DNA of 64,000 nt, taken from the NCBI RefSeq assembly GCF_057098645.1, contig NZ_CM169472.1; one strand, written 5' to 3'. Under the pieces are notes generated by a model that worked only from the letters and a program-made list of their open reading frames with translations, was not told the origin of the DNA and searched no databases. Every line of letters starts with the position of its first letter. Position 1 is the stretch's first letter. Of this stretch, positions 38,993 through 39,069 are shown piece by piece. The position numbers and the translations under genes are program-made.

Positions 38993-39006
38993 TTGCGCGA
39001 AATCAA
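38993..39006 (-). promoter_or_regulatory. Candidate FNR site for fdnG promoter (TTGAT-N4-CGCAA on minus strand)
   Basis: Half-site match to TTGAT-N4-ATCAA about 70 nt upstream of the fdnG start. Confidence 0.35.
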
Positions 39007-39053
39007 AAAGAACACGTGTTTGCCACAAAATAATCCGCCTGCGCAAATTGACC

Positions 39054-39069
39054 TACCTCAATAGCGGTA
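39054..39069 (-). promoter_or_regulatory. Candidate NarL 7-2-7 heptamer pair (TACCTCA-AT-AGCGGTA) upstream of fdnG
   Basis: Inverted heptamers each one mismatch from TACYYMT, centred about 62 bp upstream of the FNR-like site. Confidence 0.4.

What the first reader, a model, noticed from the sequence alone, without database searches (positions are those of the whole stretch)
38993..39069. Candidate FNR box and NarL 7-2-7 site upstream of fdnG
On the fdnG strand there is TTGAT-N4-CGCAA (an FNR-like half-site match) about 70 nt upstream of the start codon. About 62 bp further upstream is an inverted heptamer pair, TACCTCA-AT-AGCGGTA, resembling a NarL 7-2-7 site. The spacing fits an FNR site near -42 and a NarL site near -104, as expected for a nitrate- and anaerobiosis-induced formate dehydrogenase-N promoter.
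Basis: partly seen in the sequence, partly recalled or inferred. Interest (0 to 1): 0.25.

Follow-up and report, generated by a model that had tools for sequence, protein, structure and literature searches.

The report
Known fdnG promoter: FNR and NarL sites
The two motifs are real and are the already-characterised FNR (-42.5) and NarL (-104.5) binding sites that switch on E. coli's nitrate-linked formate dehydrogenase operon, so the finding is correct but ordinary.

Summary
On the fdnG (minus) strand, TTGATttcgCGCAA lies at 39006..38993 and TACCGCT-AT-TGAGGTA at 39069..39054, with centres 62 bp apart. The window is E. coli (100% identical to O145:H28 strains). Both motifs are identical to K-12, where this control region was dissected experimentally. 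A single +1 at window 38957 places the FNR box at -42.5 and the heptamers at -109/-100. All match the published positions and the RegulonDB-derived site list.

In 74 of 81 the best NarL 7-2-7 site lies exactly 62 bp upstream of it. The joint arrangement is expected about 0.0007 times per 64 kb by chance.

One nuance: a second, stronger FNR-like palindrome, TTGAGGTAGGTCAA, is centred at -97.5 and overlaps the -100 heptamer. It is the window's best FNR match and lies 1.5-10.5 bp from the published FNR ChIP-seq summit. It occurs only in Escherichia and is already database-annotated.

Verdict: already known, low interest.

The parts
38993..39006 (-). FNR box TTGATttcgCGCAA, centred at -42.5 (class II position). 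The right half-site is degenerate.
   Evidence: Annotated as an FNR site of b1474 in the RegulonDB-derived set, and the -42.5 position is quoted in PMC3349551. Exactly one such box is present in all 81 orthologous upstream regions. PWM score 10.54.
39054..39069 (-). NarL/NarP 7-2-7 site TACCGCT-AT-TGAGGTA, with heptamers at -109 and -100 and its centre at -104.5.
   Evidence: Flagged as 7-2-7' pair 3a/3b of b1474. PWM rank 2 of 63,985 in the window. The best 7-2-7 lies exactly 62 bp from the FNR box in 74 of 81 loci.
39078..39084 (-). Auxiliary NarL heptamer at -124 (AGTGGTG, which is CACCACT inverted).
   Evidence: Matches the b1474 list and the published position -124. It is weak (PWM 1.89) and not conserved outside Escherichia.
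39031..39037 (-). Auxiliary NarL heptamer at -77 (CGGATTA, which is TAATCCG inverted).
   Evidence: Matches the b1474 list and the published position -77. PWM 4.24. It is heptamer-like in only 9% of unique orthologous sequences.
39048..39061 (-). Second FNR-like palindrome TTGAGGTAGGTCAA, centred at -97.5 and overlapping the -100 NarL heptamer.
   Evidence: Best FNR PWM hit in the window, 15.72. [quoted passage not shown] Annotated as an FNR site of b1474. Found only in Escherichia.
38966..38974 (-). Extended -10-like element TGTTAGTTT (-17..-9). No -35 match, as expected for a class II activator-dependent promoter.
   Evidence: Read from the sequence. TG[T/A]TAGTTT is conserved at a fixed distance from the FNR box across genera. 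The sigma-70 consensus scan finds no canonical promoter here.
38957..38957 (-). Inferred transcription start (+1), giving a 29-nt leader before the ATG at 38928.
   Evidence: Derived, not measured. It is the only +1 that puts the FNR box at -42.5 and the four annotated heptamers at -77, -100, -109 and -124.
35881..38928 (-). fdnG, the regulated gene, with an in-frame UGA (selenocysteine 196) and a SECIS element.
   Evidence: ORFs 38928..38341 and 38292..35881. RefSeq annotation as fdnG. Rfam SECIS_3 at 38288..38346, 84.3 bits.

Best explanation
The interval 38993-39069 is the core of the fdnGHI (formate dehydrogenase-N) operon control region of E. coli. It is an activator-dependent sigma-70 promoter with an extended -10-like TGTTAGTTT and no -35 element.

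Under anaerobiosis, dimeric FNR binds the deliberately sub-optimal box TTGAT-N4-CGCAA centred at -42.5, overlapping the -35 position, and recruits RNA polymerase (class II activation). When nitrate is present, phospho-NarL binds as a dimer to the 7-2-7 inverted heptamer pair centred at -104.5 and raises transcription further. Weaker heptamers at -124 and -77 assist. NarP can also occupy 7-2-7 sites.

Shown here: sequence identity to K-12, exact agreement with the published site lists and positions, family-wide conservation of both elements, and their fixed 62-bp spacing. Taken from the literature: FNR and NarL dependence and in vivo FNR occupancy. Inferred: the +1 position and how NarL at -104.5 helps the FNR-RNA polymerase complex. 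My guess for the latter is alpha-CTD contact or remodelling of upstream DNA, by analogy with the ogt promoter.
For: Identity:
- The region is 100% identical to E. coli O145:H28 and present in 5413 of 5426 complete E. coli genomes, annotated yddG/fdnG.
- It has 4 SNPs in 301 bp against K-12, none in the motifs.

Literature:
- FNR at -42.5 and NarL heptamers at -77, -100, -109 and -124 (PMC3349551).
- b1474 NarL sites CGGATTA, TGAGGTA, TACCGCT and AGTGGTG, with the 7-2-7' flag (PMC2718512 S4; with flanks).
- b1474 FNR sites.
- fdnG named among four genes with a reported 7-2-7' site.
- An FNR ChIP-seq peak in this intergenic region; the operon is activated by FNR with nitrate and by NarL (PMC3688515).
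- Reviews state FNR plus NarL control of fdnGHI.

Geometry: one +1 at 38957 fits all five published positions.

Conservation in 81 upstream regions from about 30 genera:
- Exactly one TTGAT-N4-C[GT]CAA in every sequence.
- With a PWM trained on non-fdnG heptamers, the 7-2-7 at the fixed offset is the top hit of its 700-bp context in 72 of 81 loci. Its mean score is 10.2, against -17.1 for background and below -7 at every other offset.
- Centre-to-centre spacing is 62 bp in 74, 61 bp in 3, 39 bp in 3 and 102 bp in 1.
- The -10 block is conserved at a fixed distance from the FNR box.

Chance: the joint arrangement appears in 0 of 300 simulations, with about 0.0007 expected per 64 kb.
Against: - The -42.5 box is a weak FNR match (PWM 10.54, below all 62 training sites, rank 10 in the window).
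- The genome-scale FNR study did not list it among its predicted sites. It assigned the ChIP-seq peak to the -97.5 palindrome instead, and the summit lies 44-53 bp from the -42.5 centre.
- The primary papers could not be read (Li & Stewart 1992; Li, Kustu & Stewart 1994; Darwin et al. 1996 and 1997; Wang & Gunsalus 2003). The start site and footprints therefore rest on secondary citations and database-derived lists.
- Nothing was measured in the O145-like strain of the window.
Confidence: 0.93

Rival explanations
1. The FNR site that matters in vivo is the upstream palindrome TTGAGGTAGGTCAA at -97.5, not the -42.5 box. On this reading the reader's FNR assignment is wrong or secondary.
For: - It is the best FNR PWM score in the whole window (15.72 against 10.54).
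- It is the only motif listed for the yddG/fdnG peak in Myers et al. Table S6, with a PatSer score of 14.43.
- The ChIP-seq summit is 1.5-10.5 bp from its centre.
- Its half-sites are invariant in 10 Escherichia sequences while neighbouring spacer DNA varies.
Against: - It is absent outside Escherichia (median PWM score -17.7 at that position), whereas the -42.5 box is in all 81 loci at a fixed distance from the -10 element.
- -97.5 is not a position from which FNR is known to activate on its own, while about -41.5/-42.5 is the classic class II position (established knowledge).
- Half of the palindrome is the NarL -100 heptamer itself, so its conservation is partly explained by NarL.
- The literature cites -42.5 as the conserved FNR site, and the databases list both sites.
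- ChIP-seq resolution cannot separate sites 55 bp apart.
Confidence: 0.05
2. The motifs are chance consensus matches in an AT-rich intergenic region and have no regulatory role.
For: Degenerate FNR-like 14-mers are common: 61 matches with up to 2 mismatches in the window against about 40 expected, and the exact pattern is expected 0.31 times. The consensus promoter scan finds no sigma-70 promoter in the region.
Against: - The joint arrangement is expected about 0.0007 times per window and appeared in 0 of 300 simulations.
- Both elements and their spacing are conserved across about 30 genera while surrounding sequence diverges.
- The sequences match experimentally derived database sites exactly.
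- There is an FNR ChIP-seq peak in this region.
Confidence: 0.01
3. The sites, especially the NarL pair and the -97.5 palindrome, serve the divergent yddG promoter rather than, or in addition to, fdnG.
For: The intergenic region is shared. The 7-2-7 centre is 98.5 bp upstream of the yddG ATG at 39160. A plausible yddG promoter, CTGACA-N18-TATAAA at 39087-39116, can be read by eye, which would put the upstream sites at roughly -60 to -70. Myers et al. label the peak yddG/fdnG.
Against: yddG appears only in the ChIP and site tables of Myers et al., not in the FNR-dependent expression tables. The authors assign the peak to fdnG (Table S9). The spacing of the 7-2-7 is fixed relative to the fdnG FNR box and -10 element. 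I did not test whether yddG is the upstream neighbour in the other genera.
Confidence: 0.05

Closest known systems
E. coli K-12 fdnGHI operon control region (Li & Stewart 1992; Li, Kustu & Stewart 1994; Darwin, Li & Stewart 1996; Darwin et al. 1997; Wang & Gunsalus 2003)
   Same: It is the same locus. Every annotated element is sequence-identical: the FNR box, four NarL heptamers, the second FNR-like site, the -10 region and the leader. The positions -42.5, -77, -100, -109 and -124 are reproduced.
   Different: There are four SNPs relative to K-12 in the 301 bp compared: window 39041 (-84), 39016 and 39015 (-59, -58), and 39141 near the yddG start. All lie between elements. No functional difference is expected, but none was tested.
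narG promoter of E. coli (class II FNR site plus upstream NarL heptamers)
   Same: Same regulatory logic: an FNR box at the class II position plus nitrate-dependent NarL co-activation from upstream. PMC11841067 describes the regulatory pattern of the two operons as essentially identical.
   Different: From general knowledge, not tested here: narG uses NarL heptamers much further upstream (around -200) together with an IHF-induced bend. fdnG uses a compact 7-2-7 site at -104.5. The narG FNR box is closer to consensus (TTGATCGTTATCAA, PWM 15.17 against 10.54).
ogt and yeaR-yoaG promoters (NarL acting alone from 7-2-7 sites)
   Same: A NarL dimer binds a 7-2-7 inverted heptamer pair. [quoted passage not shown]
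   Different: Those promoters are FNR-independent, and their 7-2-7 sites are centred at -44.5, -67.5 or -77.5. At fdnG the pair is at -104.5 and works together with FNR.

Membership tests
Class II FNR-activated promoter | A 14-bp inverted repeat resembling TTGAT-N4-ATCAA | tested here: met
   TTGATTTCGCGCAA has 2 mismatches, both in the right half. The PWM score of 10.54 is weak but positive. The same degenerate form is kept in 81 of 81 orthologous regions.
Class II FNR-activated promoter | Site centred near -41.5 relative to the transcription start, overlapping the -35 position, with a usable -10 element | tested here: inconclusive
   The centre is -42.5 relative to a +1 at 38957. That +1 is derived from published numbering, not read from primary start-site data. 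A conserved TGnTAGTTT lies at -17..-9, at a fixed distance from the box. The primary mapping paper is not held.
Class II FNR-activated promoter | FNR occupancy and FNR-dependent anaerobic induction | not testable with these tools
   Literature only. There is an FNR ChIP-seq peak at yddG/fdnG and activation by FNR in nitrate (PMC3688515). The summit is nearer the -97.5 site than the -42.5 box.
NarL/NarP 7-2-7 binding site | Two heptamers resembling TACYYMT in inverted orientation, separated by exactly 2 bp | tested here: met
   TACCGCT-AT-TGAGGTA, where the second heptamer is TACCTCA inverted. Heptamer PWM scores are 6.85 and 5.33, against a training median of 6.11. The pair ranks 2nd of 63,985 positions in the window.
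NarL/NarP 7-2-7 binding site | Located in the control region of a nitrate-regulated gene and conserved in orthologous promoters | tested here: met
   It lies upstream of fdnGHI. A 7-2-7 site is the top PWM hit at the same offset in 72 of 81 loci, and the spacing is exactly 62 bp in 74 of 81.
NarL/NarP 7-2-7 binding site | Protection by phospho-NarL (footprint) and loss of nitrate induction when mutated | not testable with these tools
   Literature only. The sites are listed for b1474 in the RegulonDB-derived set and flagged 7-2-7', and fdnG is named as a reported 7-2-7' instance. The footprinting papers are not held.

The most novel reading that the evidence does not exclude
In Escherichia only, the stronger FNR-like palindrome at -97.5 (39048-39061) is the main site of FNR occupancy when nitrate is absent. 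Because it shares 7 bp with the promoter-proximal NarL heptamer, FNR and phospho-NarL would compete there. That would add a lineage-specific layer to a family-wide FNR(-42.5)/NarL(-104.5) design, for example holding the promoter poised or damped until NarL-P displaces FNR, or coupling to yddG. The site itself is already annotated. Only its function and its restriction to Escherichia would be new.
Probability: 0.15. Interest if true: 0.3.

Novelty: already known. Interest (0 to 1): 0.08.

Why it matters
It matters little as a discovery. The fdnG control region has been a reference example of combined FNR and NarL control since the 1990s, and every element found here is already in the regulatory databases.

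The check does confirm that the first-stage reader can locate real regulatory sites from sequence alone. The comparison across about 30 genera adds a modest point. The degenerate FNR half-site (CGCAA rather than ATCAA) and the 62-bp FNR-to-NarL spacing are kept almost unchanged across Enterobacteriaceae. That argues the weakness of the FNR box and the helical phasing of NarL are selected features, which makes the promoter depend on both signals.

Tried and rejected
- **Primary papers not held.** Reading failed for Wang & Gunsalus 2003, Li & Stewart 1992, Stewart & Bledsoe 2003, PMC3068693, Lin et al. 2007 and PMC116602. One call failed on a term-syntax error. Positions were taken from secondary sources and supplements instead.
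- **Literature searches that led nowhere.** Searches for '97.5', 'ChIP-exo' with FNR, '104.5' and 'fdnGp' returned nothing useful. No independent start-site record and no high-resolution in vivo footprint was found.
- **Strict consensus pattern.** TACYNMT-NN-AKNRGTA found no match because the second heptamer ends in A rather than T. I replaced it with a PWM.
- **Promoter scan.** The consensus sigma-70 and terminator scan of 38850-39250 found nothing. This is expected for an activator-dependent promoter without a -35 element and is not evidence against it.
- **First chance simulation.** One search used thresholds rounded above the sites' own scores and excluded the real sites. It was redone.
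- **Chance explanation.** Rejected on conservation and joint probability.
- **'-97.5 is the real FNR site'.** Considered and judged unlikely as the activating site because it is Escherichia-specific. It remains possible as an additional binding site.
- **From memory, unverified.** I recall that Li & Stewart 1992 discussed both -42.5 and -97.5 and found only -42.5 needed for anaerobic induction. I could not check this and did not use it as evidence.

Full report
**1. What is in the sequence**

- The interval lies in a 231-bp intergenic region (38929..39159).
- On one side is a minus-strand gene whose ORF starts at 38928, is interrupted by an in-frame TGA and continues to 35881. On the other is a plus-strand 293-aa ORF starting at 39160.
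- Megablast against 5,426 complete E. coli genomes finds the region in 5,413 of them. It is 100% identical to O145:H28 strains and annotated fdnG (formate dehydrogenase-N alpha subunit) and yddG.
- Rfam finds a SECIS_3 element at 38288..38346 (84.3 bits) at the UGA codon, as expected for the selenoprotein FdnG.
- On the fdnG strand, TTGATTTCGCGCAA occupies 39006..38993, with its centre 71.5 nt upstream of the ATG.
- TACCGCT-AT-TGAGGTA occupies 39069..39054, with its centre 62 bp further upstream.

**2. Is it more than chance?**

- Each motif alone is unremarkable. The exact FNR-like pattern is expected 0.31 times per window, and looser matches are common.
- I built an FNR PWM from the 62 ChIP-positive sites of Myers et al. 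2013 Table S6, leaving out the fdnG entry. The box scores 10.54, ranks 10th in the window and is below the weakest training site.
- I built a NarL heptamer PWM from 68 published heptamers of other genes. The 7-2-7 pair scores 12.18 and ranks 2nd of 63,985 positions.
- Together they are significant. An FNR hit and a 7-2-7 hit 62+-1 bp apart occur once in the real window, in 0 of 300 Markov simulations, and about 0.0007 times per 64 kb analytically (which replaces the mis-thresholded).

**3. Agreement with published work**

- The window differs from K-12 MG1655 at 4 of 301 aligned positions: -84, -59, -58 and one near the yddG start. None is in a motif. K-12 results therefore transfer.
- PMC3349551, citing Darwin, Li & Stewart 1996, gives an FNR site at -42.5 and NarL heptamers at -77, -100, -109 and -124 for E. 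coli fdnG.
- The RegulonDB/CoryneRegNet-derived lists in the PMC2718512 supplements give four NarL sites for b1474: CGGATTA, TGAGGTA, TACCGCT and AGTGGTG. TGAGGTA and TACCGCT are flagged as a 7-2-7' pair, and the flanking bases match this locus.
- The main text of that paper names fdnG as one of four genes with a reported 7-2-7' site.
- Setting the FNR centre to -42.5 fixes +1 at window 38957, which gives a 29-nt leader. The four annotated heptamer sequences then fall at exactly -109, -100, -124 and -77.
- One free parameter fitting five published positions is a strong cross-check. It is still not a direct reading of the primer-extension data, because the primary papers are not in the held library.
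- Reviews and genome-scale studies agree that fdnGHI is controlled by FNR and NarL.

**4. Independent evidence from comparative sequence**

Using the 195-aa FdnG N-terminus as query, I fetched 80 loci from about 30 Enterobacteriaceae genera, all at least 88% identical.

- Every one of the 81 upstream regions contains exactly one TTGAT-N4-C[GT]CAA within 450 bp of the start codon. The commonest form is TTGATTTGACGCAA, in 59 of 81.
- The degenerate right half is therefore conserved as degenerate. It is never 'repaired' to ATCAA, and only 5 of 81 sequences have CTCAA.
- Anchoring all sequences on this box without gaps shows conserved blocks at the box, at TG[T/A]TAGTTT (-17..-9) and at the outer ends of the 7-2-7 pair.
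- The 7-2-7 at the fixed offset is the best 7-2-7 of its 700-bp context in 72 of 81 loci. Its mean score is 10.2, against a background of -17.1 and below -7 at every other offset.
- Centre-to-centre spacing is 62 bp in 74 loci, 61 bp in 3, 39 bp in 3 and 102 bp in 1.
- The heptamer sequences themselves differ between genera (for example TAACCCT-AA-AGGATTA). What is kept is the arrangement and position, not merely inherited sequence.
- The -124 and -77 heptamers are weak and essentially confined to E. coli.
- Among 10 Escherichia sequences, including the most divergent E. coli found (96.5%), the FNR half-sites are invariant. The 7-2-7 pair varies only at the last base of one heptamer.

**5.

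- A second FNR-like palindrome, TTGAGGTAGGTCAA (39061..39048 on the fdnG strand, centre -97.5), overlaps the -100 NarL heptamer.
- It is the best FNR PWM match in the entire window, at 15.72.
- In Myers et al. 2013 it is the only motif listed for the yddG/fdnG peak (Table S6, PatSer score 14.43). After converting coordinates, the ChIP-seq summit lies 1.5-10.5 bp from its centre and 44-53 bp from the -42.5 box.
- It is not new. The RegulonDB-derived FNR set lists both TTGATTTCGCGCAA and TTGAGGTAGGTCAA for b1474.
- It is found only in the Escherichia loci and is absent at that position elsewhere (median score -17.7).
- I therefore regard the -42.5 box as the conserved activating site. The -97.5 palindrome is a lineage-specific, probably FNR-occupied extra site of unknown consequence.
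- yddG does not appear in the FNR-dependent expression tables of that study.

**6. Mechanism**

- The best-supported reading is the textbook one.
- The promoter is a sigma-70 promoter with no -35 element and an extended -10-like element.
- FNR activates it from a class II position through a sub-optimal site, which keeps anaerobic expression low without nitrate.
- A phospho-NarL dimer on the 7-2-7 pair at -104.5 boosts it, with auxiliary heptamers in E. coli.
- How NarL at -104.5 communicates with the FNR-polymerase complex is inferred, not shown. Contact with alpha-CTD, demonstrated for NarL at the ogt promoter (PMC7419079), is the most plausible route.
- The near-invariant 62-bp spacing argues for a stereospecific requirement.

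**7. Verdict**

The feature is already known, so interest is low. The only residual open question is the role of the Escherichia-specific -97.5 site.

Noticed in passing
window 39048-39061: A second FNR-like palindrome, TTGAGGTAGGTCAA (centre -97.5), overlaps the NarL -100 heptamer. It is the best FNR PWM hit of the window, lies 1.5-10.5 bp from the published FNR ChIP-seq summit, is already annotated for b1474, and is present only in Escherichia.
   Followed up: yes
window 38288-38346 (-): Rfam SECIS_3 hit (84.3 bits) at the in-frame UGA of fdnG (selenocysteine codon 196). This explains the split ORFs 38928..38341 and 38292..35881.
   Followed up: partly
window 39025-39036 (-79..-68 of fdnG); anchored alignment of L002-L081: A block between the NarL pair and the FNR box is strongly conserved across genera (GACTATTAAG in most, GGATTATTTTG in E. 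coli). It does not score as a NarL heptamer outside E. coli, and what binds there is unexplained.
   Followed up: partly
window 38946-38952 (-): A strong NarL-like heptamer, TACCCCT (PWM 9.1, higher than either heptamer of the 7-2-7 pair), lies at +9 in the fdnG leader. It is not conserved outside Escherichia and is not in the annotated site list.
   Followed up: no
window 7305-7320: The top-scoring 7-2-7 NarL PWM match of the whole window (TACTTATACCGGAGTA, 14.82) lies inside the 3' end of a 931-aa ORF (4540..7335). It may be chance.
   Followed up: no
window 45418-45431: A good FNR PWM match, GTGACGTTGATCAA (13.83). Its reverse complement is listed in Myers et al. Table S6 as a predicted site (narZ, within narU) with no ChIP-seq peak, overlapping H-NS and Fis enrichment.
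   Followed up: partly
L008-L011, L013, L014, L017-L020, L022, L023, L031, L034 (Citrobacter, Salmonella): In these loci the FNR box lies 119-128 nt from the fdnG start codon instead of about 70 nt, so the leader is roughly 50-57 nt longer. The content of the extra leader was not examined.
   Followed up: no
L077, L079, L080 (Enterobacteriaceae LSJC7, Tenebrionibacter, Cedecea); L081 (Buttiauxella): In the three more distant genera the best 7-2-7 site lies 39 bp from the FNR box rather than 62 bp, and in Buttiauxella it lies 102 bp away. This suggests alternative permitted positions.
   Followed up: partly
L035 and L005: A MAG labelled Delftia acidovorans (L035) carries an Enterobacteriaceae-type fdnG (94% identity). 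A MAG labelled Citrobacter (L005) carries an E. coli-type locus (99% identity, with Escherichia-specific promoter features). Both are probably binning errors.
   Followed up: no
window 40301-44146: Next to yddG the window has an intact 365-aa porin gene (annotated ompC-like in the matching O145 genome) and a leucine-rich-repeat protein gene. K-12 has only a short gene annotated 'putative uncharacterized protein YddL' next to yddG.
   Followed up: no
window 39087-39116 (+): By eye, a possible yddG promoter, CTGACA-N18-TATAAA. The consensus scan did not report it, probably because it requires T at the last -10 position.
   Followed up: no
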